Shown here piece after piece: positions 1 through 21,045 of a stretch of DNA of 64,000 bases. The DNA is taken from NCBI GenBank assembly GCA_945871105.1, contig CAMBUO010000001.1, forward strand, positions 59,120-123,119, read 5' to 3'. A program made the translations under genes and the position numbers. Below the pieces are notes generated by a model. The model did no database searches, had not been told where the DNA came from, and worked only from the letters and a program-made list of their open reading frames with translations. Origin of the DNA: an uncultured Clostridia bacterium (GTDB lineage: Bacteria; Bacillota_I; Bacilli_A; RF39; UBA660). The first letter of the stretch is position 1. Every line of letters begins with the position of its first letter.

Positions 1-1277
1 CAAACAACTAAAATACGATAATTCTCTTGATAATCTTTAATTAAAGAATAATCACGATTTGTGTTTTTCATAACATATTCATAAGCACCTATATAATAAC
101 TAGCATCATCTTTAATACTTACAGCTGAAAATTTTCTTTCTGATGAAAAAGTAATTTTATCGATTATTTCATATTTATTTTTATCAGGATATTTTTCTTT
201 TAAAGCTTTGAAAGTTGATGATTCATCATCTAAAGTATTAACTAATTTATTAATAATTGAACCAAACTCAGATTTATTATAATTATTATTTGGAATAATA
301 TCATATACTTTCATATTACCAGTTGTAATTGTACCAGTTTTATCTAAACATATAACATTTACTCTTGATAAGGTTTCAATGCAATATAGTTGTTGAACTA
401 AAACTTTTTGTTTACTTAAACGAATAACGGAAACAGCCATAACGGAACTTGTTAATAATACTAATCCATTAGGAATCATCCCAATTAAAGCAGCTACCGT
501 ATTAATAATAGAATCACCTATACCACTACCTATTACTAAATATTGATTTAAAAATAAAGCAGCTCCTAAAGGAATGATAATAAGTGATAATATCTGAACA
601 ATCATTTTAAATGATTCCAAAATAACAGAAGTATTTTCTTTAATATATTTAGCTTCACTTGATATTTTATTAACATAATTATCATTACCAACATGAATAA
701 CCTGACAAGTTGCATTACCAGATATAATAAAACTACCTGATAACAAAGTATCTCCTTCTCTTTTTAAAATAGTATTTGATTCACCAGTAATAAACGATTC
801 ATTCACTTCAACATTACCTTGACGAATAATACAATCAGTTAAAACCTGATTACCAGTTTTTAAAATAAGGATATCATCAAGAACTATTTTATCCATTTCA
901 ATCGTTATTTCTTTAGAATCACGTCTTACTAAAGCTTTACTACTAGCAATAACTGATAATTTATCAACTGTTTTTTTAGAAATAATTTCTTGAATAGTAC
1001 TAATAACTGTATTCCAAAAGATTACTCCTACAAATAAACAGTTTTTTAAAGAGTACATTAATTGATTACTAATAATACCAGCAAAGATAACTGCACCACA
1101 AAGAAAAATATTTAAAAAGTTAAAATAAGTTAGAACATTACTTTTAATAATTTCTGAGATACTTTTAGTAACTGGTTGATTATTATAATTAACTTTTTCT
1201 TCTTTAATTCTTTGATTAACTTCATTACTAGTTAAACCACTATTTAAATCAATTTTATTTTTTAATTCTTCTTTCAT
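1..1277 (-). CDS. P-type cation-transporting ATPase, N-terminal part (gene runs off the left edge of the window)
   Basis: Minus-strand ORF starting at ATG (complement of 1275-1277) behind a GAAGG RBS. It contains the phosphorylation motif CLDKTGTITTG (DKTGT), and the N-terminus resembles the cation_ATPase_N domain. It lies in the gap left of the first ORF in the track. Confidence 0.8.
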   Translation of the reverse strand, partial: MKEELKNKIDLNSGLTSNEVNQRIKEEKVNYNNQPVTKSISEIIKSNVLTYFNFLNIFLCGAVIFAGIISNQLMYSLKNCLFVGVIFWNTVISTIQEIISKKTVDKLSVIASSKALVRRDSKEITIEMDKIVLDDILILKTGNQVLTDCIIRQGNVEVNESFITGESNTILKREGDTLLSGSFIISGNATCQVIHVGNDNYVNKISSEAKYIKENTSVILESFKMIVQILSLIIIPLGAALFLNQYLVIGSGIGDSIINTVAALIGMIPNGLVLLTSSVMAVSVIRLSKQKVLVQQLYCIETLSRVNVICLDKTGTITTGNMKVYDIIPNNNYNKSEFGSIINKLVNTLDDESSTFKALKEKYPDKNKYEIIDKITFSSERKFSAVSIKDDASYYIGAYEYVMKNTNRDYSLIKDYQENYRILVV

Positions 1278-1280
1278 ATT

Positions 1281-2675
1281 TTACCTTCTTTTTATTATTT
1301 TTTTAAATAAAGTATTTATTAAACTTTTATTTAGATAATATGTATAAATAAAAGCTATTAATAAAGAAATTATAGATAAGAATATATTCTTAGTATAGTA
1401 AATACCTGTTACTAGGAAAAGAATTAATAAACTTAAGGGTAAATATTTATCTTGATCTAAGATAATATATTTTTTTAATTTATAATTACGATAGAAAAAG
1501 ATTACAATATAACTTATTAAAGTACCTAGAATAGGTGCATATAATCCAATATATTTTATTAAACTAAAACCTATTAGTAAATTAATAATAGTTGCTACAA
1601 TAGTAGTTTTAGCTAATATCTTAGTATCTTTATAAGCTGAGAAGATACCACTAGAAAAATTAGATAAATTAGAAAAATAAACTGATATAATCATAAGTGG
1701 TATATAGTAATAAGCTTCTCGATAAGCATTTTTTACTAGAATATTAAAGATAAAAGGTAAAATAGCTATTAATAAAATTGATACACAGATTAAGAAATGT
1801 CTTAAATTAAGATAAACACTATTATAAAATTCATCTTTATCATCTTTGTTAACTACTTTAGAAGCTGATTCTTTCCAAGAAATATTGAAGTAACTATAAC
1901 AAGTATTAATAATAGTTGGAAAACGATTACCAACAGAATAAACACCATTTTTAGCACTTCCTAAAACATTAGTAATTAATAATCTATCTGTTAAAGCTAT
2001 AGCATTCCAAGAGATACTATTTGGTACTAATGGAAAAGAATACTTAATCATTTCTTTAATTTTTTTCTTGTTTAATCCTTTAAATTTAATTAATTTAGGC
2101 ATACCTATTTTAAATATTAACCAAAGAGAAACTAAACTATTAGCAATTATATATGATAAGAATAAACTAGATAATCCCATTTTTAAAACAGCTATAAATA
2201 AGATATTTAGTAATATATTAAAGAAACTTGAAAAGAAACAAAAAACAGAATAGATTTTAAATTTTCCTAGGCCTCTAGAACAAGATCCGGCTAAAGATGA
2301 TAAAATACTAGCTAAGATATAAAAGATTAAATAAATAGTAAACGGATACTTGATAATTGAACCAACAATAAGAATCAAAAGACTCCAAATAAAATAACTA
2401 ATTAAAGAAAAAACTGTAGTTATCGAAAATACTTCTCCTTTATCTTTATCAGTTTTAGCATCAATTAAAAAACGAAACATCCCCTCTTCCATTAATAACG
2501 TAACACAAGGAATTAAAAAGATAGAAATCGTATTTAATAAGTCATACTGACCATATTCACTTGTTGTTAAAAGAGTGGTATATAAAGGCAAAAGCAAAAA
2601 ACTAACTAATTGGGTTGAAAATTTACCAATTGATATAATTAAAGTATTTTTTATTAATTCTTTTTTTTGATTCAT
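1281..2675 (-). CDS. Polytopic MOP/Wzx-type polysaccharide or oligosaccharide flippase family protein
   Basis: 464 aa, about 12-14 hydrophobic helices, basic N-terminus, AGGA RBS. The overall architecture matches the Wzx/MurJ/SpoVB superfamily. Confidence 0.5.
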   Translation of the reverse strand: MNQKKELIKNTLIISIGKFSTQLVSFLLLPLYTTLLTTSEYGQYDLLNTISIFLIPCVTLLMEEGMFRFLIDAKTDKDKGEVFSITTVFSLISYFIWSLLILIVGSIIKYPFTIYLIFYILASILSSLAGSCSRGLGKFKIYSVFCFFSSFFNILLNILFIAVLKMGLSSLFLSYIIANSLVSLWLIFKIGMPKLIKFKGLNKKKIKEMIKYSFPLVPNSISWNAIALTDRLLITNVLGSAKNGVYSVGNRFPTIINTCYSYFNISWKESASKVVNKDDKDEFYNSVYLNLRHFLICVSILLIAILPFIFNILVKNAYREAYYYIPLMIISVYFSNLSNFSSGIFSAYKDTKILAKTTIVATIINLLIGFSLIKYIGLYAPILGTLISYIVIFFYRNYKLKKYIILDQDKYLPLSLLILFLVTGIYYTKNIFLSIISLLIAFIYTYYLNKSLINTLFKKIIKRR

Positions 2676-2866
2676 GATATTATCCTTTCTAAGTAATTAT
2701 AACATTATTTAGGTAATTAGTAAATGAGAAAATATTTTTTAAATCTATTAATAAAAAATAACTACTACAAATAATAATTGTAATAAGTTATTCATATTTT
2801 ATTTAATATACTCTACACTTTTCTAAAAATATTAGATAATAAATAAAATAACTTGACAATATTTTT

Positions 2867-3211
2867 TTATCGGATAATTATAGATTCAAAATATTTTTCT
2901 TGAAACTCAGTTAATGCTCTTATTTCATCATCTGAATAATCTTTACCGTCTTTAGAAACAATTAACTTATCATCATCATCATTTATTCTATGTATTATAG
3001 CTATTACTTTGCCAACACTTGAAGAAACAGGTTCAACTTCTCCAAGTAAATAAGCATCTAATTCTTCTCCATCACCACTTAATGTATTAGGAATAAATCC
3101 ATAGTTTAGCATATATATAAATCCATGTTTAGGGTGTCTAGATCCTAATTGTCTATCAATTTTTATATTTACTTCTTTTCCTAAATAATCATTAACACTT
3201 GTATTTTCCAT
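2867..3211 (-). CDS. Short inorganic-pyrophosphatase-like protein (family I PPase fold, truncated paralog)
   Basis: Contains HPKHGFIYMLNYGFIPNTLSGDGEELDAYLLG, to be compared with the canonical YPxNYGFIxxTLxxDGDPxDxLV of family I PPases. The true ppa at 59150-59659 carries DGDPVDILV. This protein has only 114 aa and lacks the first ~40 residues of a PPase. AAAGGAG RBS. Confidence 0.5.
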   Translation of the reverse strand: MENTSVNDYLGKEVNIKIDRQLGSRHPKHGFIYMLNYGFIPNTLSGDGEELDAYLLGEVEPVSSSVGKVIAIIHRINDDDDKLIVSKDGKDYSDDEIRALTEFQEKYFESIIIR

Positions 3212-3380
3212 TTTTAACTCCTTTTAATTTAATTTATTATAATGTTTATCCTTATTGTTTTGTATATTTCTTTTTATTTCTATTTTTATCTGATACATCA
3301 AAATATTTTGTGTTATCTCTTTATTTTGCTTCAAGTGTTATACAACTAATTTCTAATAAAATAAAAGATAATTTTTTGTC

Positions 3381-3409
3381 TTGAATTTATAAATATTTAT
3401 TAGTATAAT
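3381..3409 (+). promoter_or_regulatory. Sigma-A type promoter (TTGAAT-17-TATAAT) for the small peptide gene
   Basis: TTGAAT at 3381-3386, 17-nt spacer, TATAAT at 3404-3409. Confidence 0.5.
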
Positions 3410-3424
3410 GATAGTGAGGTGTAT

Positions 3425-3511
3425 ATGAAAAAGAAAACAACTAAAATAATTACTATTGGTTTATTAATAATTATGGTAGCTGCATTTATTTGTGGACTAA
3501 TTTATATGTAA
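3425..3511 (+). CDS. Small hydrophobic peptide (28 aa, MKKKTTKIITIGLLIIMVAAFICGLIYM), single predicted TM helix
   Basis: ATG at 3425 lies 4 nt after GTGAGGTG (3414-3421). The peptide has a basic N-terminus followed by a hydrophobic stretch, ends at TAA 3509-3511, and is followed directly by a hairpin terminator. The gene is not in the ORF track because it is too short. Confidence 0.4.
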   Translation: MKKKTTKIITIGLLIIMVAAFICGLIYM

Positions 3512-3513
3512 AA

Positions 3514-3540
3514 AAACTTCGTTTGAAGTTTTTTTATTTG
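3514..3540. terminator. Bidirectional intrinsic terminator shared by the small peptide gene (+) and mscL (-)
   Basis: AAACTTC-GTT-GAAGTTT hairpin flanked by A-run and T-run. The mscL stop codon at 3534-3536 abuts it. Confidence 0.6.
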
Positions 3541-3914
3541 TCTTTTAATAAATCTCTTATTTCTTCTAGTAGTTTAATATCATCTGGTTTTTTAGGTTCT
3601 TCTTTCTTTTCTTCTTTCTTCTTACTTAATTTATTGAATATTTTTACAACAATGAAAATAGTTAGAGCAACAATTAGAAAATCAACAATATTTTGGATAA
3701 ATGATCCAACCATAATACTGGCATTTCCAACAGTTACCTTAATTCCTTCAAAGTGAATTCCTCCGATAATCACACCAACAAGTGGCATGATAATATCATC
3801 AACTAAACTTGAGACAATTTTATTAAAAGCATTTCCAATGACAACAGCAATAGCTAAATCTAAAACATTTCCTTTAGCAATAAATTTTTTAAATTCTTCT
3901 AAAAATTTTTTCAT
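3534..3914 (-). CDS. mscL: Large-conductance mechanosensitive channel
   Basis: [47 protein letters not shown] is the canonical MscL N-terminus, and the protein has two TM helices. Confidence 0.9.
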
Positions 3915-3922
3915 CTTTTCTC

Positions 3923-4549
3923 CTACTTAGTTCCAAAAATACGATCACCGGCATCACCTAGACCTGGAACAATATAACCTATATCATTTAACTTTTCATC
4001 TAACTTAGCAACATAAATGCTAACATCTGGGTGATCTTCTTGAATCTTTTTAATTCCAACAGGAGCTGCAATCACACATAAAAATTTTATTTTTTTAACT
4101 CCTCGCTTCTTTAACATCGTAATAGCAGCTGAACCTGACCCGCCAGTTGCTAGCATTGGATCTAAAACAATTACAGTTTTATCTTCAATATGTTTTGGTA
4201 ATTTGCAATAATACTCAACAGGTTCTAAAGTTTCTTCATTACGATATAAGCCAATATGACCTATTTTAGCATTTGGCATTAAAGTTAAAACACCATCAAC
4301 CATACCAAGACCTGCTCTTAAAATAGGCACAAAAGCATAATCATTTTCATCAATTATATGTCCCTTTGTTTTAGTAATAGGTGTTTCTACCTCAATTTCT
4401 TTTAAAGGAGCATCTTTTAAAGCTTCTAAACAAAGAATAGTTGCAATTTCACTTATTAATTCTCGAAATTCCTTTGTACTAGTCGTTTTACTCCTTAAAA
4501 TCGATATCTTATGTTCTATCATCGGATGATTTAAAATTATTTCTTTCAT
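3923..4549 (-). CDS. upp: Uracil phosphoribosyltransferase
   Basis: UPRTase family sequence (…[10 protein letters not shown]…, [12 protein letters not shown]-binding loop). Start taken at the internal ATG ([10 protein letters not shown]) preceded by GGAGGAAC. Confidence 0.9.
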
Positions 4550-4598
4550 AGTTCCTCCAATCAAAAAAATAGTACCACAAAATGGTACTATTTGTAAA

Positions 4599-5510
4599 CT
4601 AAATTTGCATAATAAATGTCAAAAAAGATATATTTTGTAAACACTTATTACTTTTAATATCTTCATCTAAAATAGCTAAATTATATAGCATATTTAATAA
4701 TTCTTTTTGGGAATAATTATAACCTTTATTTCTAGCTAATTTAACAGGATATTCATGAACTTCTAATAAATTACTAATTTCAGAATCACTTAATCGATTT
4801 AAAACTTTAACATTATAAATTAATCTAATTTGATTGGCTAACATAATCATAATTTGAATAATCTCTGTTCCACTACTAAGAAAATGTTCATATAATTCAT
4901 AAACTTTTTTCTTATCTTTTTTAACAATAGAATCAATTAAATCAAAGATACTCGATTCAATATTTCTATTACTTACTAAATCAATATCTTCTTTCGTAAT
5001 AATCTTTTTATCTACTTTATATAATTTTAATTTTTCTAACTCTGATTCAATTATATTATAGTTTTGGCCTACTTTATTTAAAAAGTATTGAATGGTACTT
5101 TTATTCATTTTATAATTTTCTAAATTATTTTCTATAAAAGTACTATAATCTATATTTTTAATTGTAATTATTTTAAATACTTTTTTTATTTCTGTTACTA
5201 GTTTTAAACGATTATTTAATTTATTAACTACTAGTATTAAGATATTATCACTAGGGTTATTAATGTATTTTAATAATTTATCTTCTTTAAAATCTGTTTT
5301 TTCGATTAAGAATAAAGGATTATAACCAATAATAACTTTTTGTTTTAAAAACATATCATAAGTATCTAAATCTTCAATTATTTTATTAAATTCTATTTCA
5401 TTTAAATCATATTTAATTAATTCATAGTTAGTTAATTTATTTATTATTTTATCGATTTCTTTTTGAATTAAAACAGGATTTTCTCCTTCGATTAATATTA
5501 ATTTATCCAT
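4599..5510 (-). CDS. holA: DNA polymerase III delta subunit
   Basis: 303 aa with holA-like N-terminal domain organisation. It overlaps the alaS stop by 8 nt. Confidence 0.55.
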
Positions 5511-8190
5511 TTAAGATACCATTTTTAACTGTTTCAAGAGATTCATCTAATTTATTAATATCTTTTCCAGCACCTCTAGCAAATTTATTAGATCCTCCCC
5601 CATTACCTCCTGTTAATTTAGTTATATCTTTAATAATTTTACCAGCATCAATTAAAGAATTACTACGAGCTATAAAGTTGATATTTTCTTGATTTATATT
5701 AGCAAATAAGATAAACATATTCGGATATTTATTAACTAAAGTATCAGCTATATTTTTTAAAGTATCATTATCTTCATTATCAATTTTCATGATTAAAAGA
5801 TTTAAGTCTTTTTCTTTTAAAATATTCTTTTCATATTTTGATAAATCATTAATACTTAATTCACTCTTTAATTTTAAGTATTTCTTTTCTAATTCATGAA
5901 CTGAGTTAGCTACATAATTATCTTTATTTTTTAAATTTATAATATCTTGGTAAGAACTAGGTTTAATATTATCAAGAGTTAAATCAAGGGTTAAAGTTAT
6001 TCCTTCTTCTTTAGCTTTTTTTATTAATTCTTTTGCTTTCATGATATTTTTAATAATATTTTGATTATAAGGATTAGCTATGGTTAATAAATTTTCTTCT
6101 ACTTTATCTTTGGTAGCTCCAGTTATTCTAAATGTGTTACTTCCTTTATTTTCTAAAGAAATAATAGCAAATTTTTTGATATCTTTCGTATTTTTAACAT
6201 GACAGCCTCCACATAATTCTTTGGATTTACCAATTTCTACTAATCGTACTTTATCTTTGTATTTATCAGCAAATAAAGCCATTACTTCATTTGTATCAAT
6301 ATCACTTAAATTTTTAATAGTTGTTTCTCTTTGGTAACTATTTTTAATATAATCATTAACAAAGTTTTCTACTTTTACTAAAGTTTCATCAGTTATTTTT
6401 CCATGATAATTAAAATCAAATCTTAAATAAGTATCTGTTACTTTTGAACCTACTTGATAGATATCTTTAGCAATTAAGGTTTGTAGAGCAAGTTGTAAGA
6501 TATGAACAGTTGAATGATTGGCTTCTATGTTTAATCTTCTTTCTTTATCAACTATTGATTCTACTTTATCATCTAATTTAATAGTTCCATGTAATACTTT
6601 AATTTTATGAAGATGTTGACCATTTGGAGCTTTAAAAACATCTAAAACTTTCGCTTTAAAATTATCACCTTGAATGATTCCAGTATCACTTATCTCTCCA
6701 CCTGATTCAGCATAGAAACAAGTTTTATCAAGAACAACTATTCCTTCTTCATCTAAACTATCAACAAATTTATCATTTTTAATAAGAGCAATTACTTCAC
6801 CTTTTTGTTCATATACTTCATAAATAAATTCTGATTCATCTTTATAATTTAAAAGCATTTCATTTTGACTTTTAAAAGATTCTATTTGTTTTTGGTTATT
6901 CTTCGACAATTCTTTTTGTTCTTGCATACATTTTAAGAATTCTTCTTTATCTGTGGTGTAACCTTTTTCAGCAAGTATTTCTAAAGTAAGTTCAAAAGGA
7001 AAACCATAAGTATCATATAATTTAAATACATCATTTCCTTTAATTTTATTATCAAGTGATTCATCCATTAATTCTAGTAATTTCTTTTCTCCTTTATCAA
7101 GCGTTTTTAAAAATAAATCTTCTTCTTGCATGATAAGAGCTTTCACATGAGCTTGTTTATTTAATAGATAAGGATAAACATCTTTCATATTTAAAACTAC
7201 TGAATCAACTAGTTTATACATAAATTTTCCTTTTAAGCCTAGTTTTTTACCATAACGAACACTTCTTCTTAAAAGTCGTCTTAAAATATAACCACGACCA
7301 ACATTATCAAAATTAGCTCCATCAGCAAGGGCAAAAGTTAAAGAACGAACATGATCAGCAATAACTTTATAAGGCATAGAACCATCATATAAAGTTCCAC
7401 TTAATTCTTCAACCATCTTAATAGTTGGCATGAATAAGTCGGTATCAAAGTTACTATCAGCATCTTGAAAAATACAAGCCCATCTTTCAAGTCCTGCCCC
7501 AGTATCAATATTTTTACTTGGTAATTCTTGATAGTCTTTTCGATCAATACCTTCTTTAGAGTTAAATTGACTAAAAACATTATTCCAAATTTCTACATAA
7601 CGTTCATTATCTTCACCTTTTTGAAAATGTTCTAAGGCCTTGCCATCAAAGTCATATTTTTCCCCACGATCAAAGAAAATTTCCGTATCAGGACCACATG
7701 GACCTTCCCCTATTTCCCAGAAATTATCTTCAAGTTTAGTAATATGATCTTCTGGTACGCCTAAACTTACCCATTTATTATAAGTATCTTTATCTTCAGG
7801 ATAAACCGTAAAATAAAGTTTATCAATTGGAATATTAAACCATTTAGGACTTGTTAAAAGTTCAAAAGCAAATTCAATCGCTTCATTTTTAAAATAATCA
7901 CCAATGGAAAAGTTTCCCATCATTTCGAAGAAAGTATGATGACGACGGGTTACTCCAACATTTTCAATATCATTAGTACGAATACACTTTTGTATATTTG
8001 TAACTCTTCTATTATCGGGAACAACTGATCCATCAAAATATTTTTTTAAAGGTGTAACTCCAGCATTAATCCAAAGCAAAGAATCATCATCTTTCGGTAT
8101 TAATGGTGCACTTTCTACTACTTTATGACCTTTACTTTGAAAGAAGTCAAGCCACATTTTTCTAATTTCTAAACTAGTCATTTTTTTCAT
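5503..8190 (-). CDS. alaS: Alanine--tRNA ligase
   Basis: Class II aaRS motifs (FFQSKGHKVVESAPLIP…DDSLLWINAGV), C-terminal editing and C-Ala domains, about 895 aa. The first M in the track is a TTG, so the start was taken at ATG 8188-8190. Confidence 0.95.
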   Translation of the reverse strand: MKKMTSLEIRKMWLDFFQSKGHKVVESAPLIPKDDDSLLWINAGVTPLKKYFDGSVVPDNRRVTNIQKCIRTNDIENVGVTRRHHTFFEMMGNFSIGDYFKNEAIEFAFELLTSPKWFNIPIDKLYFTVYPEDKDTYNKWVSLGVPEDHITKLEDNFWEIGEGPCGPDTEIFFDRGEKYDFDGKALEHFQKGEDNERYVEIWNNVFSQFNSKEGIDRKDYQELPSKNIDTGAGLERWACIFQDADSNFDTDLFMPTIKMVEELSGTLYDGSMPYKVIADHVRSLTFALADGANFDNVGRGYILRRLLRRSVRYGKKLGLKGKFMYKLVDSVVLNMKDVYPYLLNKQAHVKALIMQEEDLFLKTLDKGEKKLLELMDESLDNKIKGNDVFKLYDTYGFPFELTLEILAEKGYTTDKEEFLKCMQEQKELSKNNQKQIESFKSQNEMLLNYKDESEFIYEVYEQKGEVIALIKNDKFVDSLDEEGIVVLDKTCFYAESGGEISDTGIIQGDNFKAKVLDVFKAPNGQHLHKIKVLHGTIKLDDKVESIVDKERRLNIEANHSTVHILQLALQTLIAKDIYQVGSKVTDTYLRFDFNYHGKITDETLVKVENFVNDYIKNSYQRETTIKNLSDIDTNEVMALFADKYKDKVRLVEIGKSKELCGGCHVKNTKDIKKFAIISLENKGSNTFRITGATKDKVEENLLTIANPYNQNIIKNIMKAKELIKKAKEEGITLTLDLTLDNIKPSSYQDIINLKNKDNYVANSVHELEKKYLKLKSELSINDLSKYEKNILKEKDLNLLIMKIDNEDNDTLKNIADTLVNKYPNMFILFANINQENINFIARSNSLIDAGKIIKDITKLTGGNGGGSNKFARGAGKDINKLDESLETVKNGILNG

Positions 8191-8737
8191 TGTTATCAAT
8201 CCTTTCTAATATGTTTTTTAATTCTTTAATATAACTATCTTTATCTTGATTATTTAAAAGAAAATAATCAGCCATCGCAATTGGTCCACCTTTAGCTAAA
8301 TTTTCAATTTCTGCTATATCTCTTTTATAAGCTTCTTCATTTGTTAAAGGGCGAATTTCTCGATTAGTTAAACGACTATAACGAAGGCTTCGATCAGCAA
8401 TAATAGCAATTAGAGTAAGTTTATCTTTTAATTCTTCTCGTAAGACAACTAACTCATCCCAAGAATACAAGCCATCTAAAACAACATTATAATCTTTACT
8501 ATATTCTTTAATTCTTGGTAATAATATTTTAGCATACGCCGCCATTCCTAATTCACTTCTTAATTTTTCCCGCATATACTTTTCATTTTCAGGGTTAATT
8601 TCCATACCATTTTCTTTTAATTTTTCCATGGTAACTCCCCCAAAATAAACCTTTTTATACCCAATACTTTCTAAATAATCACTAGCAACTGATTTACCAG
8701 ATCCACACATTCCAACAATAGCAATAATTTTATTCAT
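8174..8737 (-). CDS. P-loop NTPase, nucleotide/dephospho-CoA-kinase-like small kinase
   Basis: Walker A motif IAIVGMCGSGKS near the N-terminus, 187 aa. It overlaps the alaS start and is probably the first gene of the operon. AAAGGAGGAG RBS. Confidence 0.4.
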   Translation of the reverse strand: MNKIIAIVGMCGSGKSVASDYLESIGYKKVYFGGVTMEKLKENGMEINPENEKYMREKLRSELGMAAYAKILLPRIKEYSKDYNVVLDGLYSWDELVVLREELKDKLTLIAIIADRSLRYSRLTNREIRPLTNEEAYKRDIAEIENLAKGGPIAMADYFLLNNQDKDSYIKELKNILERIDNNEKND

Positions 8738-14571: not shown

Positions 14572-15237
14572 TTACGAATGCATTTTATTAATAAGTGGTA
14601 ATTCTTTAGCTTTGCCATCACAGACATTTTTTATTCCCATAAAAGATAAAATAAGAGATAGAAAGAAGAATACTGTTTGACATATACTTACAAGCCAACT
14701 AACTCTCCAACTTAAAATTAAACCTAAAAACCAAAGAATACCCCCAACAATGATTTCAGCTATCAAAAGGCTTATACCTTGCTTAGCATGAAATATAACA
14801 TATTTATTCTTTTTTTCACTTAAATAAGGTATAAGAACAAGTATACCTAGATAAGATAAAATTCCTAATGCTTTTCCTTTTTTAATATCTTCTTTAGAAT
14901 ATTCATTACTAGTATCTTTTACATCCTTAAAAGCACTCTCTAATTTATCTTGAAAACCCATATTTTTATCTGGAAAATTATTATTATTGTTATTTGTAGA
15001 ATTATTATTATTTTGATAATTATTCATTTGATTACTATTAGAATAATAATTATTATTTGTTGAATTATTATTACTTTGATAATTATTCATTTGATTACTA
15101 TTAGAATAATTATTATTGTTTTTATTGTTATAATTACTATTTTGATAGTTATTATTAATCTGATTATTATCATGGTAATTATTATAATAACTATTAGATT
15201 GATTATTGTTTTGATTATTATTATTTGAATAATTCAT
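14572..15237 (-). CDS. Membrane protein with Asn/Gln-rich low-complexity N-terminal region and a C-terminal DUF4870-like 2-TM domain
   Basis: About 120 aa of N/Q/Y/S-rich sequence, including a tandemly duplicated 21-aa unit, followed by ALGILSYLGILVLIPYL…HAKQGISLLIA. A hairpin terminator lies at 14535-14560. Confidence 0.5.
   Translation of the reverse strand: MNYSNNNNQNNNQSNSYYNNYHDNNQINNNYQNSNYNNKNNNNYSNSNQMNNYQSNNNSTNNNYYSNSNQMNNYQNNNNSTNNNNNNFPDKNMGFQDKLESAFKDVKDTSNEYSKEDIKKGKALGILSYLGILVLIPYLSEKKNKYVIFHAKQGISLLIAEIIVGGILWFLGLILSWRVSWLVSICQTVFFFLSLILSFMGIKNVCDGKAKELPLINKMHS
15001..15120. repeat. Tandem in-frame 63-nt and 60-nt duplication inside the Asn-rich gene
   Basis: Two consecutive near-identical units (attattattatTttgataattattcatttgattactattagaataat…) encoding YSNSNQMNNYQ(S/N)NNNSTNNN. 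Confidence 0.7.
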
Positions 15238-16856: not shown

Positions 16857-18833
16857 TTAATAATTAGTAATCAAAACCTCAATAGTCTTTGTAATATTTC
16901 CTTTTTGCTTATGATAATTAGAATTATTATAATCACATGTTATATAATGTATAGTATAATTATGTTCTTTAATCCATGTTTGCAGTATTTCATGTGTTGC
17001 TCCTTTATGTTCTATAACATTCGATAAAGCAAATTTAATACCTTTAGAATCTAGGATAGTTAAATAGTTAAGCAAATCTATTTCATCTTGTTTGGTCCAA
17101 CCACCATTTTCATTATAACTAGCTGTTCCTAAAAAATATGGTGGATCACAATATACTAATGTATTTTCATTCGTTTCTATCGCAAACTCTCTAAAATCAG
17201 AATTAATAAATTCTATATTTTTAGTTTTTAATTTAGTAATAAAATTTTTTAAATTTTTTCTAAGTGAATTGTTTAAGTCTCTTTTACCAACAGGCATATT
17301 AAATTCACCATTACTATTAAATCTTATTTGATTATTAAATCCGTATATAACTAATGTTAAAAATAAAAAGTCTTTTTCTATTGAATCATTTTTCATATTA
17401 TTATAATCATTTCTGAGTTCTACATATTTATTTTTGTTATAAGATCCTAATCCTTTATCACTAGTACAATTATACATTTCGTATCCATTTAATAACGAAT
17501 TGCTTAATTCATATTTATCTATAATCTTTTCTAGTTTATCTATAATGTAACCATCTTCGTACTTTTTAAATAGATTCATAACTCTAATTATTTCTTTTTG
17601 TTTATCTACACAAACAATTTTTTTAGCATTTACATTTACACCAACGTTTGAGCCACCAGAAAATAAATCTACAAATAAATCCAACTCTTTAGGGAAAATA
17701 GGAATTATTTGATTAAGTATTTTATACTTTCCTCCTGTATAATTTAATGGTGATTTTACTATATCATTAGAAACTTTTTCATTAATAGTTTTTGCTTTCA
17801 ATACTTTTCCAACCTTGCATACAAAAAGTCTTTCCTTATGGTTATCAATATGTGTTTTTCCAGTATTAAATTCTTTGAAATCAGTCTCATAAACTTTTAC
17901 TTTACCTTTTTTGCTCAAAGTATTCATAATATCTTCATCAGATATTTTAGCTTGTGATCTGCCTGCACCTTTTTTACCCATATTATTATAAGAAACTATA
18001 ATATATTTGGCATCAATATTTTCAATTAAGTCTTTAAATGCAAGAGGTGCTGAAACTGAACAATATTTGCTCTTAATTCCATTTCGCTCCATTTTTTTTG
18101 CAACACCATGAACTTCACTTTTTTCCCACATTGCTACATTTTCTAATAAGTGATATGCATCAGAATATTGCCTAGAATTATATGGTGGATCAATGTAAAC
18201 AACATCAGCTTTTAAATTTCTTACCAATTCATTTGAATCTTCATTAAAAATTTTATTATTTTTATTATTGGTGTTTGATTTTAAATCAAGCATACATAAT
18301 TCCAACTTTTTATTTAAATCTCCATTTTTCCTATATGCATCATAATGACCAACTGTATTTGCAATTTTATCCATAGCATATAAAAGTGAAGTTACCAAAA
18401 CTGCTCTTTCTCTAATATTTAAATTATTGTTTGTATAATTTTCTTCAATATTTTCTCTAATAAATCCTATTTTTTTACAGTTTTCTTCACTAAAATAAGT
18501 ATTTGAAAAATTTAATGAAAAATAATTATCTCCTAAATCAGTTAGTGAATTATATTTATTAATGTATTCTTTTATTTTATTTTTGTCTATCTTTTCATTT
18601 CCAAACCATGCTAAATAAGAAATATAATTTGATTTTAGCAAATCATTTACATACACCTTTGTTTTTTGGTCATTAAATGAATCTCCAACTATACCTGTTC
18701 CGCCGAATAAATCTAAAAAAGAAGAATATTCTATTTTTTCTTTTTTTATTGTTTCTTTTATAAAATCTATCATTCTAAATTTACTACCAATATATCTTCT
18801 ATTATTAATTGAAATTGTTTTCATTTTTATCAT
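16857..18833 (-). CDS. Tandem double N6-adenine DNA methyltransferase (two Dam/D12-class domains), Type IIS modification enzyme
   Basis: Two complete MTase modules, each with an FxGxG-type SAM motif (LFGGTGIVG, LFSGGSNVG) and a DPPY motif (VVYIDPPYNSRQY, LVYCDPPYFLGTASY). This architecture matches M.FokI, M.MlyI and M.BstNBI. Confidence 0.8.
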   Translation of the reverse strand: MIKMKTISINNRRYIGSKFRMIDFIKETIKKEKIEYSSFLDLFGGTGIVGDSFNDQKTKVYVNDLLKSNYISYLAWFGNEKIDKNKIKEYINKYNSLTDLGDNYFSLNFSNTYFSEENCKKIGFIRENIEENYTNNNLNIRERAVLVTSLLYAMDKIANTVGHYDAYRKNGDLNKKLELCMLDLKSNTNNKNNKIFNEDSNELVRNLKADVVYIDPPYNSRQYSDAYHLLENVAMWEKSEVHGVAKKMERNGIKSKYCSVSAPLAFKDLIENIDAKYIIVSYNNMGKKGAGRSQAKISDEDIMNTLSKKGKVKVYETDFKEFNTGKTHIDNHKERLFVCKVGKVLKAKTINEKVSNDIVKSPLNYTGGKYKILNQIIPIFPKELDLFVDLFSGGSNVGVNVNAKKIVCVDKQKEIIRVMNLFKKYEDGYIIDKLEKIIDKYELSNSLLNGYEMYNCTSDKGLGSYNKNKYVELRNDYNNMKNDSIEKDFLFLTLVIYGFNNQIRFNSNGEFNMPVGKRDLNNSLRKNLKNFITKLKTKNIEFINSDFREFAIETNENTLVYCDPPYFLGTASYNENGGWTKQDEIDLLNYLTILDSKGIKFALSNVIEHKGATHEILQTWIKEHNYTIHYITCDYNNSNYHKQKGNITKTIEVLITNY

Positions 18834-18878
18834 CCATTTCCATTTTAGGCATCACACACCATATATAAATTATACCAT

Positions 18879-18903
18879 AAAAATAGATAATTGTAACAAT
18901 TAT
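18879..18903. repeat. Perfect 12+1+12 palindrome between the endonuclease stop and the methyltransferase start
   Basis: ATAGATAATTGT-A-ACAATTATCTAT. On the minus strand it is followed by TTTTATGGTATAAT, which reads as a T-run plus an extended -10. Confidence 0.6.
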
Positions 18904-20874
18904 CTATATTTTTTCTAAAATTTCTTTTTCAAACCATACTGGATCTGGTTCCGATGACTTATAGGCCTTATCAAACCAAGAATATATATAATCATACTTT
19001 ACATTATTAATAAGCAACTTCTTTAAAATATCTATGTTAATAGGTATGATTTTAAGTCCGTTTATAAATTCACCGTTTCCTTTTGGATAACAATATGTTT
19101 TTCTATTTCTAAAGTCCATTATAATTCTTTCTTCTAATATTGGAGCTACAAATAAGGCATAGTCATTTTCATTATTTGTTAGTTTTATATTTTCTCCTAA
19201 ATGTCTTGAAACAGGTTCCATTTCCATAGATCTTTGACTTGTTGATTCTGAAAGAGTTGCCTCTATTAACAAATCATGTTTAGGATAACTATCTTCCTCA
19301 TATTTATATACAATATCAGCCATACCACCACCAGCATGAGTCTTTGGAAGTAAATCAGCATCTAAACTCAAATTCATATAGTCTAATATATTTCCTTTTT
19401 TATTACTAATTCTATACCAAGCAATTCCTAATACATATTCAAAAATAGTTGGAACTGTGGCATTATCAGTAACATAATCATTTACTATCTCATCATTTCT
19501 ATCTTTAATATTATCTAATAGCATTAAAATTTTATCATTAGGAAACTTCTCATCAATTAATTTGTTAAATGCTTTTAATTTTTCATTTTCAACATAACTA
19601 TTAATTGTATTTATTGTTAAATTCGTTCCTAAACTACTATTAATATTTTTAATAACATCTTCAATGTTTAAAGAATAGTTAGGAGAAATTTTTTCAAGGG
19701 ATACGTTGTTATAAAATATTTCTTTATAATTATCTTCATCTAATAATTTCTCATCAAGTAAGTCATCTACAATTCCCTCAAAATAATATTTTGGTAACAT
19801 ATCAAGTTCAATTTTATTACCTTCAAACTTAATAATATCTGTTAAAGAAAAATATCTTTTATTTAAATCAAAATATTCTTTTAGATTTACTTTCCACTTA
19901 AACAAATGTAAATTAGTAAAAAACTTTTGCTTGAAATCTATAATATTTTTTACTGTCGAAATATCAAGATTTCTAAATTTCTTATCAAATTCTTCATCTA
20001 AACTATTAACTCTATAACCGAAAAATAAGTATTCAACCCAAAGTGGCCTTGTATTTCCAGATATATCTTGACAATAATTATATAATTCTTTATATTTTTC
20101 TAATCTTTCCTCGAAAGTATTATACCTTAAATGAAAAACCAAATCTACTAAAGCATGATATACATTATTGTAATTTCTATCATAAGCTCTACTTTTTCTA
20201 TTAATTCCGATTTTTTCAAAAGTTTCTTCAGTAATAGGATAATCTTGCCTAAAAATATTCCATGCTTCTAAGTAATTTTTCATTTCAAATATTTTCATTT
20301 TAATTATTTCATTGATATCTAATCCCATTCTATTTGCTTTAATATTTTCCACCATTTTTTTAACATCATACTTATTTTTGCATAATGGCAATAAATATGT
20401 AAATTCTTCATAAGAAAGATAATCTAATTTTTCAATCATATATACTAGTGCAATAAATGGTCTTATTTTTATATCACCATCAACTATTTGAAGTTTCAAC
20501 ATTTGTAACAAATAGTAATAACTATCTTCTGACACAAAGAAAATATTATCTTTTGTCATTTGTTTATATAATAAATTTTCTATATTATTTCCAACAGCAG
20601 TTAATCTTCTGTCATCTGTTATAACACCAATATTAACTAATCCTGAGGTTTTTTCTCTTGCATCTTTATCTGGTCTTAAGGCATCACCATATATAAAGTC
20701 ATTTTCTTTTAAGTAATTATAATATTTTTTTTGAGTATTAGAATTCCATTGTGAATTAGGATTTAGTTTCCAAAATTCTTTTAATAATTGTAACTGTCTT
20801 TCAATCTTATAATTCAATTGACTTGTTCTAAAACTGGTAGTACCAATAGACCAACTATAACTTTTAAAAGCCAT
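18904..20874 (-). CDS. Type IIS restriction endonuclease / nicking endonuclease of the AlwI (PleI/MlyI/N.BstNBI) family
   Basis: The C-terminal half (…LLPKTHAGGGMADIVYKYEEDSYPKHDLLIEATLSESTSQRSMEMEPVSRHLG…YALFVAPILEE…IIPINIDILKKLL) resembles the catalytic region of N.BstNBI/AlwI-family enzymes as recalled from memory. The protein is 656 aa and sits next to a double-domain methyltransferase. Confidence 0.6.
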   Translation of the reverse strand: MAFKSYSWSIGTTSFRTSQLNYKIERQLQLLKEFWKLNPNSQWNSNTQKKYYNYLKENDFIYGDALRPDKDAREKTSGLVNIGVITDDRRLTAVGNNIENLLYKQMTKDNIFFVSEDSYYYLLQMLKLQIVDGDIKIRPFIALVYMIEKLDYLSYEEFTYLLPLCKNKYDVKKMVENIKANRMGLDINEIIKMKIFEMKNYLEAWNIFRQDYPITEETFEKIGINRKSRAYDRNYNNVYHALVDLVFHLRYNTFEERLEKYKELYNYCQDISGNTRPLWVEYLFFGYRVNSLDEEFDKKFRNLDISTVKNIIDFKQKFFTNLHLFKWKVNLKEYFDLNKRYFSLTDIIKFEGNKIELDMLPKYYFEGIVDDLLDEKLLDEDNYKEIFYNNVSLEKISPNYSLNIEDVIKNINSSLGTNLTINTINSYVENEKLKAFNKLIDEKFPNDKILMLLDNIKDRNDEIVNDYVTDNATVPTIFEYVLGIAWYRISNKKGNILDYMNLSLDADLLPKTHAGGGMADIVYKYEEDSYPKHDLLIEATLSESTSQRSMEMEPVSRHLGENIKLTNNENDYALFVAPILEERIIMDFRNRKTYCYPKGNGEFINGLKIIPINIDILKKLLINNVKYDYIYSWFDKAYKSSEPDPVWFEKEILEKI

Positions 20875-21045
20875 AATCTATCTACTCCCTTTATATCTAT
20901 TTTAACATAAAACTTAGCATTTTTTAAATTTAAAACTGATTTTCTTTGATTTTTTTATTTTTTTTAAATTGTCTTCTTACATCACAGATGATATTTAAAA
21001 TTAAACTACTATATTTGCTAAGAAAAGTCAATAATATCTATTTTT

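What the first reader, a model, noticed from the sequence alone, without database searches (positions are those of the whole stretch)
16857..20874. Type IIS (AlwI/PleI/MlyI/N.BstNBI-family) restriction system with a fused double Dam-like methyltransferase
The 658-aa methyltransferase has two complete D12-class modules, each with its own DPPY motif. This is the solution used for asymmetric sites, one module per strand, as in M.FokI and M.MlyI. The adjacent 656-aa protein shares the THAxG…EPVxRH block and the C-terminal layout of AlwI-family endonucleases, as recalled from memory. The likely recognition site is GAGTC or GGATC. Some members of this family are natural nicking enzymes, so this one could be a cutter or a nickase. 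The gene order is R upstream of M, each with its own signals.
Basis: partly seen in the sequence, partly recalled or inferred. Interest (0 to 1): 0.6.

Follow-up and report, generated by a model that had tools for sequence, protein, structure and literature searches.

The report
SfaNI-like type IIS restriction-modification system

Summary
Both ORFs exist exactly as described. The 656-aa protein is a full-length RE_AlwI endonuclease (Pfam E 7e-68). Its catalytic residues are conserved, and its high-confidence model (pLDDT 93.7) matches only N.BspD6I among solved structures. The 658-aa protein (probably 655 aa, starting at Met4) is a fusion of two complete D12 adenine methyltransferase modules. 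R lies upstream of M, and each gene has its own promoter.

The predicted site is probably wrong. The endonuclease is only a remote cousin of the GAGTC enzyme N.BspD6I. Neither GAGTC nor GGATC is avoided once codon usage is controlled for. The methyltransferase is 50% identical over both modules to the S. aureus SAP055A enzyme, and the DNA-reading hairpins are essentially invariant. The 3' end of the SAP055A gene matches, at 25 of 27 nt, the cloning primer of the S. xylosus fused methyltransferase, which was shown experimentally to methylate GATGC/GCATC (SfaNI type). A GATGC also sits in an invariant block in the M leader in all eight lineages examined.

There is no small-subunit gene, so a double-strand cutter is more likely than a nickase. 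This is a new member of a common, known kind. The one mildly novel feature is the conserved copy of the system's own site in the M leader.

The parts
18904..20874 (-). R gene: 656-aa AlwI-family (PF09491) Type IIS restriction endonuclease
   Evidence: The ORF is listed. Pfam gives RE_AlwI at E 7e-68 over the full profile. The family profile matches N.BspD6I at E 8.5e-28. The AF2 model has pLDDT 93.7, and Foldseek finds only N.BspD6I and its small subunit. dN/dS against L002 is about 0.09.
19201..19440 (-). Catalytic core of R: codons E479 to H558, including the invariant residues E479, P510, G516, D520, E538, E551, R557 and H558
   Evidence: These columns are invariant across 51 diverse homologs. 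They align motif for motif with N.BspD6I: TVFEW (E418), HAAGNQPDM (D456), GEVTT and ESEPVTRH. PDB entries 6qnz and 5lhc are the E418A and D456A mutants of that enzyme.
16857..18833 (-). M gene: fused double D12 N6-adenine DNA methyltransferase. The ORF is 658 aa; the probable start is Met4 at 18824, giving 655 aa.
   Evidence: Gene callers give 655 aa in 17 or more contigs. dN/dS against L002 is about 0.05.
17799..18833 (-). M module 1 (residues about 1-345): a divergent D12 / 'DNA adenine methylase' module with FxGxG at 43-47, the hairpin TSLLYAMDKIANTVGHYDAYRK (148-169) and DPPY at 215-218. By homology it is predicted to methylate the GATGC strand.
   Evidence: Pfam covers residues 14-271. 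There is no PDB relative by sequence. A stand-alone PADLOC model, PDLC03373, matches residues 5-341. The hairpin is nearly invariant across MTases only 47-52% identical. The strand assignment comes from the S. xylosus C-terminal truncation result (PMC10030836).
16860..17771 (-). M module 2 (residues about 355-658): a T4-Dam-like D12 module with FxGxG at 391-394, the hairpin GFNNQIRFNSNGEFNMPVGKR (498-518) and DPPY at 563-566. By homology it is predicted to methylate the GCATC strand.
   Evidence: phmmer against T4 Dam (1yfj) gives E 1.4e-32 over the whole chain. TIGR00571 matches residues 360-656. The hairpin core is invariant. In S. xylosus, loss of the C-terminal 173 aa abolishes GCATC methylation but not GATGC methylation.
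20885..20928 (-). R expression signals: a promoter-like site with an extended -10 (TTTAAA, 18-nt spacer, TGtTAAAAT) and the ribosome-binding site AAGGGAG (20885-20891)
   Evidence: Four of the five related loci (L003-L006) have comparable TGnTA(T/A)AAT sites, and all five have GGAG-type ribosome-binding sites upstream of R.
18879..18906 (-). Terminator-like hairpin plus T-run, starting at the R stop codon (TAGATAATTG-tta-CAATTATCTA-TTTTT) and overlapping the -35 of the M promoter
   Evidence: RNA folding gives -8.2 kcal/mol with z -4.1. The equivalent hairpins in four other lineages have different arm sequences and fold at -9.3 to -10.7 kcal/mol with z -3.2 to -4.5. The consensus terminator scan did not flag it because the stem is AT-rich.
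18869..18897 (-). M promoter: GTTACA, 17-nt spacer, TATAAT preceded by TG (extended -10)
   Evidence: It matches 10 of 12 consensus positions and has the TG. TGnTATAAT is invariant in all eight lineages compared.
18836..18853 (-). Conserved M-leader block GATGCCTAAAATGGAAAT, which begins with GATGC (18849-18853), the predicted recognition site of the system
   Evidence: The core of the block (GATGCC, AAAA, GGAAA) is invariant in all eight lineages, whose REases are only 60-90% identical, and it lies 13-16 nt after the -10. 'GATGCCTAAA(A)TG' also lies immediately upstream of the M start in the E. faecium and L. plantarum plasmid systems. Such a site occurs by chance in 4-7% of 80-nt windows of this genome.

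Best explanation
This is a complete, functional Type IIS restriction-modification cassette of the SfaNI-like group.

The methyltransferase is a single polypeptide with two alpha-class (D12) N6-adenine modules. The N-terminal module methylates the adenine in GATGC. The C-terminal, T4-Dam-like module methylates the adenine in the complementary GCATC. Together they protect both strands of the asymmetric site.

The endonuclease has the N.BspD6I/FokI-like layout: N-terminal DNA-recognition domains and one C-terminal PD-(D/E)XK-type catalytic domain (E479, D520, E538, E551, R557, H558). It binds unmethylated GCATC and cuts a few bases to one side. Because each chain has only one active site, it probably needs two molecules to cut both strands.

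R is transcribed from its own extended -10 promoter and ends in a weak hairpin terminator. M has its own strong extended -10 promoter. A conserved copy of the system's own site lies in the M leader and may allow M to sense or limit its own expression.

Shown by tool results: the family memberships, the conserved catalytic residues, the two complete MTase modules, the gene order and signals, purifying selection on both genes, and the presence of the cassette in many unrelated genomic contexts.

Inferred: the GCATC specificity, which module methylates which strand, double-strand cleavage by dimerisation, and any role of the leader site.
For: Family and fold:
- Searches give the Pfam, NCBIfam and PADLOC assignments.
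- Searches show the invariant catalytic residues aligned to N.BspD6I E418/D456 and the motifs that follow.
- Searches give the model (pLDDT 93.7) and show that Foldseek finds only N.BspD6I (E 2.6e-14) and its small subunit.

Specificity:
1. PMC10030836. In S. xylosus TMW 2.1324, an AlwI-family REase gene (2121 nt) lies next to one fused two-domain alpha-class MTase gene (2127 nt). That MTase alone, expressed in E. coli, methylates GATGC and GCATC at about 100%. A truncation of the C-terminal 173 aa leaves only GATGC methylated.
2.. The reverse cloning primer for that gene matches the last 27 nt of the S. aureus SAP055A MTase gene at 25 of 27 positions (...HEVLITNY*). The window MTase ends ...IEVLITNY* and is 50% identical to the SAP055A MTase over residues 7-658.
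3.. The DNA-reading hairpins of both modules are invariant or nearly so across the window, Priestia, S. aureus, E. faecium and L. plantarum enzymes, whose overall identity is only 44-52%.
4. PMC12898733 Table 1. AlwI-family REases of 677-679 aa are always paired with a 'DNA adenine methylase + Dam' MTase, either fused or split. PMC4807054 names the M. mycoides member the 'GCATC-recognizing MmyCIII' enzyme. PMC9465063 reports GA(m6)TGC in M. agalactiae strains that carry an MTase 96% identical to M. bovis MBOVPG45_0722.
5.. GATGC is invariant in the M leader of eight lineages and recurs upstream of M in two plasmid systems.
6.. A Priestia plasmid has a single fused MTase flanked by one REase of the window type (43% identical) and one of the staphylococcal type (42% identical to SAP055A). 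This implies that both REase subfamilies depend on the same methylation.

Function and spread:
- dN/dS is 0.09 for R and 0.05 for M.
- The protein is identical in 17 or more contigs.
- The same R-gap-M layout occurs in unrelated neighbourhoods, including next to a Hachiman system.
Against: - No sequence of an experimentally characterised GCATC enzyme of this architecture could be compared over its full length. The bridge to S. xylosus rests on a 27-nt primer, on matching gene sizes and on the same gene neighbourhood.
- 50% identity between methyltransferases does not guarantee the same specificity.
- The staphylococcal, enterococcal and lactobacillal REases are only about 26% identical to the window REase. 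The REase subfamily in this window therefore has no directly characterised member that I could identify.
- GCATC/GATGC is not avoided in the window (60 observed, 58 expected) or in other hosts (62 observed, 68 expected). That neither helps nor hurts the assignment.
- The only GCATC AlwI-family REase whose sequence I obtained (R.Cal02329) is just a remote relative and uses beta-class MTases.
- The S. aureus and Priestia systems lack the GATGC leader element.
Confidence: 0.72

Rival explanations
1. One reading: the system recognises GGATC (AlwI-like) or GAGTC (MlyI/PleI/N.BstNBI-like).
For: - The REase belongs to the Pfam family named after AlwI.
- The C-terminal MTase module is most similar to the GATC enzyme T4 Dam. 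It keeps residues that I recall from memory as T4 Dam's DNA contacts (K11, R116, P126, R130), which would fit a GATC-containing site such as GGATC.
- The raw GAGTC count is low: 6 observed against about 33 expected at orders 0-1.
Against: - With protein sequence and codon usage held fixed, GAGTC is 6 against 11.2 expected (z -1.5) in the window and 19 against 18.3 in other hosts. GGATC is 58 against 50.
- phmmer does not find N.BspD6I (GAGTC) even at E<=10.
- Experiments link the fused alpha-class MTase plus AlwI-family REase architecture to GCATC.
- The hairpin differs from T4 Dam at S112N, M114Q and other positions, yet is identical to the GCATC-linked staphylococcal enzyme.
- The conserved leader site is GATGC. 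Neither GGATC nor GAGTC occurs in that leader in any of the eight lineages.
Confidence: 0.1
2. The system has a related but different specificity. For example, it might read a longer or degenerate site that contains or resembles GCATC, or another GAT/ATC-containing asymmetric site such as GGATG/CATCC, CCATC or GATG/CATC. On this reading the window-type REase subfamily is a distinct, uncharacterised specificity group.
For: - The window-type REase subfamily is only about 26% identical to the subfamily linked to GCATC in staphylococci.
- The AlwI family and D12 MTases have diversified repeatedly. MhoVII reads GATG/CATC, and the L. paracasei methylomes list many 5-bp asymmetric motifs.
- One lineage (L029) differs in the module-2 hairpin.
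Against: - A REase must read the site that its partner MTase protects, and the MTase hairpins are invariant with the GCATC-linked enzymes.
- On the Priestia plasmid both REase subfamilies flank a single MTase.
- GATGCC is invariant in the leader.
Confidence: 0.13
3. The endonuclease is a natural strand-specific nickase, or the large subunit of a heterodimer, like N.BstNBI/N.BspD6I, rather than a double-strand cutter.
For: Its only solved structural relative is the nickase N.BspD6I. It has one catalytic site per chain.
Against: - BspD6I-type double-strand cleavage needs a roughly 186-aa small subunit encoded by the adjacent ORF (PMC3017599). No such ORF exists between the flanking housekeeping genes here or in the homologous cassettes.
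- Family members without a small subunit (MlyI, AlwI) cut both strands as homodimers.
- A lone nickase would be a poor restriction barrier, yet the gene is under strong purifying selection and always paired with an MTase.
Confidence: 0.05
4. The AlwI-family protein is not a restriction enzyme. Instead it is a non-specific, surface-exposed nuclease used for nucleotide scavenging, as claimed for the M. meleagridis homolog Mm19.
For: PMC4807054 reports non-specific nuclease activity and surface exposure for a 646-aa AlwI-family protein encoded next to an MTase gene.
Against: - The N-terminus of the window protein (MAFKSYSWSIGTTSFRTSQ...) has no hydrophobic signal or anchor.
- It is invariably paired with a two-strand MTase.
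- It retains the full N-terminal DNA-recognition region that aligns with N.BspD6I.
Confidence: 0.02

Closest known systems
S. xylosus TMW 2.1324 Type II system (JGY90_00145/00150), of the SfaNI prototype (GCATC); also the S. aureus plasmid SAP055A / pPH1-2 systems
   Same: - An AlwI-family REase lies next to one fused MTase made of two alpha-class Dam-family domains.
- The SAP055A MTase is 50% identical to the window MTase over both modules.
- The DNA-reading hairpins are identical, and both proteins end in EVLITNY.
   Different: - The gene order there is M then R; here it is R then M.
- Those MTases carry an extra N-terminal extension of about 65 aa that is absent here.
- Their REases (701-706 aa) belong to a different subfamily, only about 26% identical to the window REase.
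MmyCIII (M. mycoides capri GM12) and its M. bovis PG45, M. agalactiae, M. meleagridis (Mm19) and S. uberis homologs
   Same: - The REases belong to the AlwI family and are 646-679 aa long.
- They pair with a 'DNA adenine methylase' plus a 'Dam' MTase, which are fused in M. meleagridis (642 aa) and S. uberis (709 aa).
- The site is annotated or measured as GCATC/GATGC.
   Different: - The MTases are split into two genes in M. bovis, M. agalactiae and M. mycoides.
- In M. meleagridis the two genes are convergent.
- No sequence was available to measure identity to the window proteins.
N.BspD6I / N.BstNBI (GAGTC), PDB 2EWF
   Same: - It belongs to the same Pfam family.
- It has the same overall multi-domain fold.
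- It has the same catalytic constellation (E418, D456 and the following motifs align with E479, D520 and their neighbours).
   Different: - Identity is only about 17%, and it is undetectable by single-sequence search.
- It works with a separate small catalytic subunit, which is absent here.
- It reads a different site.
AlwI (GGATC 4/5) and MlyI/PleI (GAGTC)
   Same: They belong to the same family. Each chain has one catalytic site, and they cleave as homodimers (PMC3017599). The same mechanism is inferred here.
   Different: The recognition site is probably different. I had no sequences to compare, so this part of the comparison rests on the literature and on the MTase evidence.
M.FokI-type fused double methyltransferases
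   Same: The principle is the same: two adenine-methyltransferase modules in one chain, one for each strand of an asymmetric site.
   Different: The partner endonuclease is of the AlwI family, not the FokI family, and the site differs. This comparison with M.FokI rests on general knowledge and was not tested here.
MhoVII of M. hominis (GATG/CATC)
   Same: It has a fused two-module adenine MTase with a Type IIS-like REase, and it occurs in Mollicutes and relatives.
   Different: Its M1 is a beta-class YhdJ-type module rather than D12, and its REase clusters outside the AlwI family.
R.Cal02329 of Caldicellulosiruptor (SfaNI-like, GCATC)
   Same: It is an AlwI-family REase shown to be linked to GATGC/GCATC methylation.
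   Different: It is only remotely related to the window REase (BLASTP E 0.26; profile E 2e-17). It lacks the HAxGG...EPVSRH motifs and uses two separate beta-class MTases.

Membership tests
RE_AlwI (PF09491) Type IIS endonuclease family | A significant match to the family profile over its full length | tested here: met
   230 bits against the gathering score of 23.1, E 7e-68, profile positions 2-441 of 441.
RE_AlwI (PF09491) Type IIS endonuclease family | A conserved PD-(D/E)XK-type catalytic constellation, as in N.BspD6I (E418, D456 and the following acidic/RH motif) | tested here: met
   E479, D520, E538, E551, R557 and H558 are invariant in 51 homologs and align with the N.BspD6I motifs. 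PDB holds the E418A and D456A mutants of that enzyme.
RE_AlwI (PF09491) Type IIS endonuclease family | A fold like the solved family member | tested here: met
   Foldseek gives N.BspD6I at E 2.6e-14 with probability 1.0. The whole-chain TM-score is only 0.41-0.45, probably because the domains are oriented differently. The small subunit 2p14 gives TMt 0.71.
RE_AlwI (PF09491) Type IIS endonuclease family | Recognition of an asymmetric site with cleavage outside it | not testable with these tools
   This is inferred from family membership and from the two-module MTase.
D12-class (alpha) N6-adenine DNA methyltransferase, fused double form | Two complete modules, each with a SAM-binding FxGxG motif, a target-recognition region and DPPY, in that order | tested here: met
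   Pfam and TIGR00571 each give two stretches. FxGxG lies at 43-47 and 391-394, and DPPY at 215-218 and 563-566. PADLOC models of stand-alone enzymes match residues 5-341 and 351-658 separately.
SfaNI-like (GCATC/GATGC) R-M systems with an AlwI-family REase and an alpha-class double MTase | Architecture: an AlwI-family REase of about 650-700 aa adjacent to a fused (or split) 'adenine methylase + Dam' MTase | tested here: met
   Searches give the window architecture. The comparators come from PMC10030836, PMC12898733 Table 1 and PMC4807054.
SfaNI-like (GCATC/GATGC) R-M systems with an AlwI-family REase and an alpha-class double MTase | MTase orthologous to an experimentally characterised GATGC/GCATC methyltransferase | tested here: inconclusive
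   The link is indirect. The MTase is 50% identical, with invariant hairpins, to the SAP055A MTase. The 3' end of that gene matches the S. xylosus cloning primer at 25 of 27 nt.
SfaNI-like (GCATC/GATGC) R-M systems with an AlwI-family REase and an alpha-class double MTase | m6A at GATGC and GCATC, and cleavage at GCATC | not testable with these tools
   This needs a methylome or biochemistry. The only supporting hint is the invariant GATGC in the M leader.
GAGTC group (MlyI/PleI/N.BstNBI/N.BspD6I) | Close sequence similarity to a GAGTC enzyme | tested here: not met
   phmmer against the PDB finds no N.BspD6I hit even at E<=10. Identity in the structural alignment is 16-18%.
GAGTC or GGATC groups | Avoidance of the site in the host genome | tested here: inconclusive
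   Under the codon-shuffle null, GAGTC is 6 against 11.2 expected and 19 against 18.3, and GGATC is 58 against 50 and 37 against 49. No candidate site stands out, GCATC included.
Heterodimeric nicking-type enzymes (BspD6I/BstNBI class III) | An adjacent gene for a small catalytic subunit of about 186 aa | tested here: not met
   There is no ORF of 60 aa or more on the coding strand other than R and M between the flanking peptidase genes. None is called next to the homologous cassettes either.

The most novel reading that the evidence does not exclude
The conserved block in the M leader (GATGCCnAAAAnGGAAA), 13-16 nt downstream of an invariant extended -10 promoter, may be a cis-regulatory copy of the system's own recognition site. 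On this reading the fused methyltransferase represses or tunes its own gene by binding or methylating that site. This would give a control circuit without a C-protein for an R-then-M cassette, one that has persisted in lineages that lost the N-terminal extension found on the plasmid-borne enzymes. The 12-codon out-of-frame mini-ORF that starts at the ATG inside the block and overlaps the M start in the window could add translational coupling.
Probability: 0.3. Interest if true: 0.4.

Novelty: new member of a known kind. Interest (0 to 1): 0.2.

Why it matters
Practically, this is a restriction barrier in an uncultured, very low-GC gut-type Bacilli lineage. If the site is GCATC, DNA for transformation could be pre-methylated with the cloned MTase, or designed without GCATC sites. 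The case also shows that Pfam family membership does not predict the specificity of AlwI-family enzymes; the partner methyltransferase is the better guide. The window-type REase subfamily (at least 182 clusters at 50% identity with E<=1e-30) appears to have no biochemically characterised member, so it could supply a new Type IIS reagent with a different cleavage offset. The conserved copy of the system's own site in the M leader is a small, testable lead on how R-M cassettes without a C-protein are regulated.

Tried and rejected
1. **Site avoidance.** Markov expectations suggested that GAGTC is depleted. A null that shuffles synonymous codons removed the signal, and no candidate site stood out in the window or in five heterologous host loci. 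I rejected this line as uninformative.
2. **Single-sequence PDB search with R.** It found nothing. Only the family profile found N.BspD6I.
3. **Names and accessions in the large protein collection.** There were none among 120 top hits or in 20 cluster look-ups. The link to M. bovis, M. mycoides and S. xylosus proteins could not be made this way.
4. **The genome-contig scan.** It returned only six loci, all from uncultured MAGs.
5. **The characterised GCATC enzyme R.Cal02329**, extracted from a paper supplement. It is too distant to be informative and has beta-class MTases.
6. **Supplements of the Mm19 and MhoVII papers.** They hold no sequence text.
7. **The S. xylosus forward primer.** It has no match in the fetched loci.
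8. **Looking for an empty site in the same species.** Every contig that carries the flanking Peptidase_S51 gene and reaches far enough upstream also carries the cassette. The look-up with the GTG-start DacA protein failed.
9. **Consensus folding of the hairpin.** It failed because MAFFT misaligned the short arms. Folding the sequences individually worked.
10. **Flanking direct repeats or tRNA genes as insertion marks.** None were found.
12. **The primary papers of Higgins 2001 and Xu 2001.** They are not held.

Full report
**Observation.** R is at 18904..20874 (656 aa) and M is at 16857..18833 (658 aa), with 70 nt between them and R upstream. The quoted motifs are present: THAGGG...EPVSRH in R, and two DPPY motifs in M, each with its own FxGxG. 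Pfam gives RE_AlwI over the entire profile (E 7e-68) and two MethyltransfD12 stretches (E 1.6e-60). NCBIfam 'dam' matches twice. PADLOC matches a full-length double MTase model (E 8e-200), plus separate stand-alone models for each half. Gene callers in 17 or more metagenome contigs, and the alignment with homologs, start M at Met4 (18824), which gives 655 aa.

**The endonuclease.** The family is large. More than 3,799 proteins match in the 90%-clustered collection, and 694 clusters match at 50% clustering, most of them 650-680 aa. In an alignment of 51 diverse members, E479, P510, G516, D520, E538, E551, R557 and H558 are invariant. A single-sequence search of the PDB finds nothing, even at E<=10. 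The family profile, however, finds the nickase N.BspD6I (identical to N.BstNBI; site GAGTC) at E 8.5e-28 and its small subunit at 9e-8. The catalytic motifs line up: TIFEY with TVFEW, HAGGGMADI with HAAGNQPDM, LIEATL with LGEVTT, and EMEPVSRH with ESEPVTRH. PDB entries 6qnz and 5lhc are the E418A and D456A mutants of that enzyme. The AlphaFold model is very confident (pLDDT 93.7, pTM 0.89). Foldseek against the PDB returns only N.BspD6I (E about 3e-14, 16-18% identity) and the small subunit. So R is a genuine AlwI-family enzyme with one PD-(D/E)XK-type site per chain, but only a distant cousin of the GAGTC enzymes.

**The methyltransferase.** The C-terminal module aligns with the whole of T4 Dam (E 1.4e-32). 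The hairpin that reads GATC in T4 Dam, [21 protein letters not shown], aligns with GFNNQIRFNSNGEFNMPVGKR here. My recollection of which T4 Dam residues contact DNA comes from Horton et al. 2005 and was not checked here. The N-terminal module is a divergent D12 type with no PDB relative by sequence.

**Which site: what failed.** Plain Markov expectations suggested GAGTC depletion (6 observed against about 33 expected at orders 0-1) and none for GGATC. I then held protein sequences and codon usage fixed by shuffling synonymous codons. GAGTC became 6 against 11.2 expected (z -1.5) in the window and 19 against 18.3 in five other host loci. GGATC, GCATC and the other candidates were also unremarkable. 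Site avoidance therefore says nothing. The protein collection gave no names or accessions.

**Which site: literature.** PMC9799307 shows that an AlwI-family REase predicted by REBASE to read GASTC belongs to a system whose close homolog actually methylates GATGC/GCATC. Family membership therefore does not predict the site. That enzyme is too distant from this one to transfer the specificity.

The architecture seen here, however, is tied to GCATC in several taxa:
- PMC12898733 states that in Mollicutes and streptococci AlwI-family REases (677-679 aa) are always associated with a 'DNA adenine methylase + Dam' MTase. The MTase is fused in M. meleagridis (642 aa) and S. uberis (709 aa) and split in M. 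bovis, M. agalactiae and M. mycoides.
- PMC4807054 lists the M. mycoides member as the 'GCATC-recognizing MmyCIII endonuclease'.
- PMC9465063 finds GA(m6)TGC only in M. agalactiae strains that carry an MTase 96% identical to M. bovis MBOVPG45_0722, which is assigned to the SfaNI prototype.
- PMC10030836 is the most direct. In S. xylosus TMW 2.1324, an AlwI-family REase gene (2121 nt) lies next to a single MTase gene (2127 nt) with two alpha-class Dam-family domains. That gene alone in E. coli methylates GATGC and GCATC at about 100% and protects against SfaNI. An IS insertion that removes the C-terminal 173 aa leaves only GATGC methylated.

**Which site: sequence bridge.** The cloning primers in that paper give real sequence. 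The reverse primer encodes ...HEVLITNY-stop. It matches the last 27 nt of the fused MTase gene of S. aureus plasmid SAP055A at 25 of 27 positions. That MTase gene is 2133 nt and lies next to a 2106-nt AlwI-family REase gene.

The SAP055A MTase is 50% identical to the window MTase over residues 7-658. The E. faecium (47%), Priestia megaterium (52%) and L. plantarum (split; 52% and 44%) plasmid enzymes are similar. Despite this divergence, the hairpins of both modules are invariant or nearly so. Module 1 reads TSL.YAMD..ANTVGH.DAYRK and module 2 reads GFNNQIRFN..G..N.PVGKR. The window protein also ends ...IEVLITNY.

The accompanying REases fall into two subfamilies that are about 26% identical to each other. 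One contains the window REase and Priestia REase 2 (43% identical). The other contains the S. aureus, E. faecium and L. plantarum REases and Priestia REase 1. On the Priestia plasmid, one REase of each type flanks a single fused MTase, and the only intervening ORF has no Pfam match. The simplest reading is that both REase types depend on the same methylation.

**An independent hint.** The R-M gap is conserved across eight lineages whose REases are only 60-90% identical. It contains:
- a hairpin with different but complementary arms plus a T-run, starting at the R stop codon (-8 to -11 kcal/mol, z -3.2 to -4.5);
- an invariant TGnTATAAT extended -10;
- 13-16 nt further on, the conserved block GATGCCnAAAAnGGAAA, which starts with GATGC.

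GATGCCTAAA(A)TG also lies directly before the M start codon in the E. faecium and L. plantarum plasmid systems. By chance, only 4-7% of 80-nt windows in this genome hold such a site. I had formed the GCATC hypothesis before I looked at this region.

Taken together, I put GCATC/GATGC at about 0.7-0.75. By homology with the S. xylosus truncation result, the N-terminal module methylates GATGC and the C-terminal Dam-like module methylates GCATC.

**Expression and context.** R has its own extended -10 (TGTTAAAAT) and the ribosome-binding site AAGGGAG. M has the promoter GTTACA-17-TGgTATAAT.

The cassette sits between a Peptidase_S11 (DacA-like) gene and a Peptidase_S51 gene, among housekeeping genes. 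It is in the same place in every contig of this species that was retrieved. Its GC content matches the surroundings. It has no flanking repeats and no tRNA gene nearby.

Homologous cassettes with the same R-gap-M layout lie in unrelated neighbourhoods in other uncultured Bacilli or Mollicutes-like MAGs. One lies beside a Hachiman system and a serine recombinase. Both genes are under strong purifying selection: dN/dS is about 0.09 for R and 0.05 for M against L002.

**Cutter or nickase.** According to PMC3017599, MlyI and AlwI have one site per chain and cut as homodimers, while BstNBI/BspD6I needs a small subunit encoded by the adjacent ORF. No such ORF exists here or in the homologous cassettes. 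A double-strand cutter that dimerises is the default expectation. This is an inference and was not tested.

**Comparison and novelty.** This is a new member of a common known kind. [quoted passage not shown] It differs from the best-documented relatives in three ways: the gene order is R then M, the MTase lacks the roughly 65-aa N-terminal extension, and the REase belongs to a subfamily for which I found no characterised member. The conserved copy of the system's own site in the M leader may be worth a small experiment.

**Limits.**
- No full-length sequence of a characterised GCATC enzyme of this architecture was available.
- The bridge uses a 27-nt primer, matching sizes, matching neighbourhoods and invariant hairpins.
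- The T4 Dam contact residues and the precedents for MTase autoregulation are recalled from memory.
- Specificity, cleavage offset and oligomeric state all need experiments.

Noticed in passing
window 18836-18906 (minus strand); also L002-L006, L027, L029, L031 intergenic R-M regions: The 70-90-nt R-M gap is strongly conserved across eight lineages. It holds a covarying hairpin plus T-run at the R stop codon, an invariant TGnTATAAT, and the conserved block GATGCCnAAAAnGGAAA, which contains the predicted recognition site. In the window, the ATG inside the block opens a 12-codon out-of-frame mini-ORF that overlaps the M start.
   Followed up: partly
L025 (Priestia megaterium plasmid pPmC-129-1, NZ_CP069398.1) 339-8445: One fused double MTase is flanked by two divergent AlwI-family REases. 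One is 43% identical to the window REase, and the other is 42% identical to the S. aureus SAP055A REase. A 327-aa ORF with no Pfam match lies between the first REase and the MTase. So two different endonucleases apparently share one methyltransferase.
   Followed up: partly
L023, L024, L026 (E. faecium, S. aureus and L. plantarum plasmids), N-termini of the MTases: The plasmid-borne homologous MTases carry an extra N-terminal extension of about 65 aa (for example MKTTKQILKDFNISRQTLMNWINTKAITTP...). It looks like a helix-turn-helix, although Pfam gave no hit. It is absent from the window-type MTases. Those plasmid systems have the gene order M then R and are flanked by IS elements and recombinase genes.
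   Followed up: partly
L031/L032 1-3912 and 8800-10013: A homologous R-M cassette (REase 69% identical) sits directly downstream of a Hachiman-like pair (HamA plus a DEAD/ResIII helicase) and a metallophosphatase gene, and upstream of a serine recombinase gene. This looks like a mobile defence island.
   Followed up: no
window, whole 64 kb: Under a codon-preserving null, the 4-bp palindromes ACGT (observed/expected 0.40, z -6.1) and GTAC (0.61, z -5.5) are clearly under-represented, while GATC (0.93) is not. This could reflect other restriction systems, past or present, or partly CpG depletion in the case of ACGT.
   Followed up: partly
window 14572-15237 (minus strand): This 221-aa protein has an N-terminal half that is an extreme Asn/Gln/Tyr-rich low-complexity tract (NNNQNNNQSNSYYNNY...) and a C-terminal half that is a membrane domain (a weak MamF_MmsF match in gene calls). 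It is conserved in all contigs of this species.
   Followed up: no
window 1-64000: Almost all genes are on the minus strand. GC skew is negative throughout except at 9-11 kb, where the two plus-strand genes lie. No tRNA genes were found. GC content is 24.6%. Long ORFs are intact with TGA read as a stop, so this is not a code-4 Mycoplasma, even though related MAGs are labelled 'Mycoplasma sp.'.
   Followed up: no
literature: PMC9799307 versus REBASE prediction: The REBASE-predicted site GASTC for the Caldicellulosiruptor AlwI-family enzyme CsaDORF2754P is contradicted by the methylome of a 97.5%-identical homolog, which shows GATGC/GCATC. This is a warning against transferring specificity by family name.
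   Followed up: yes
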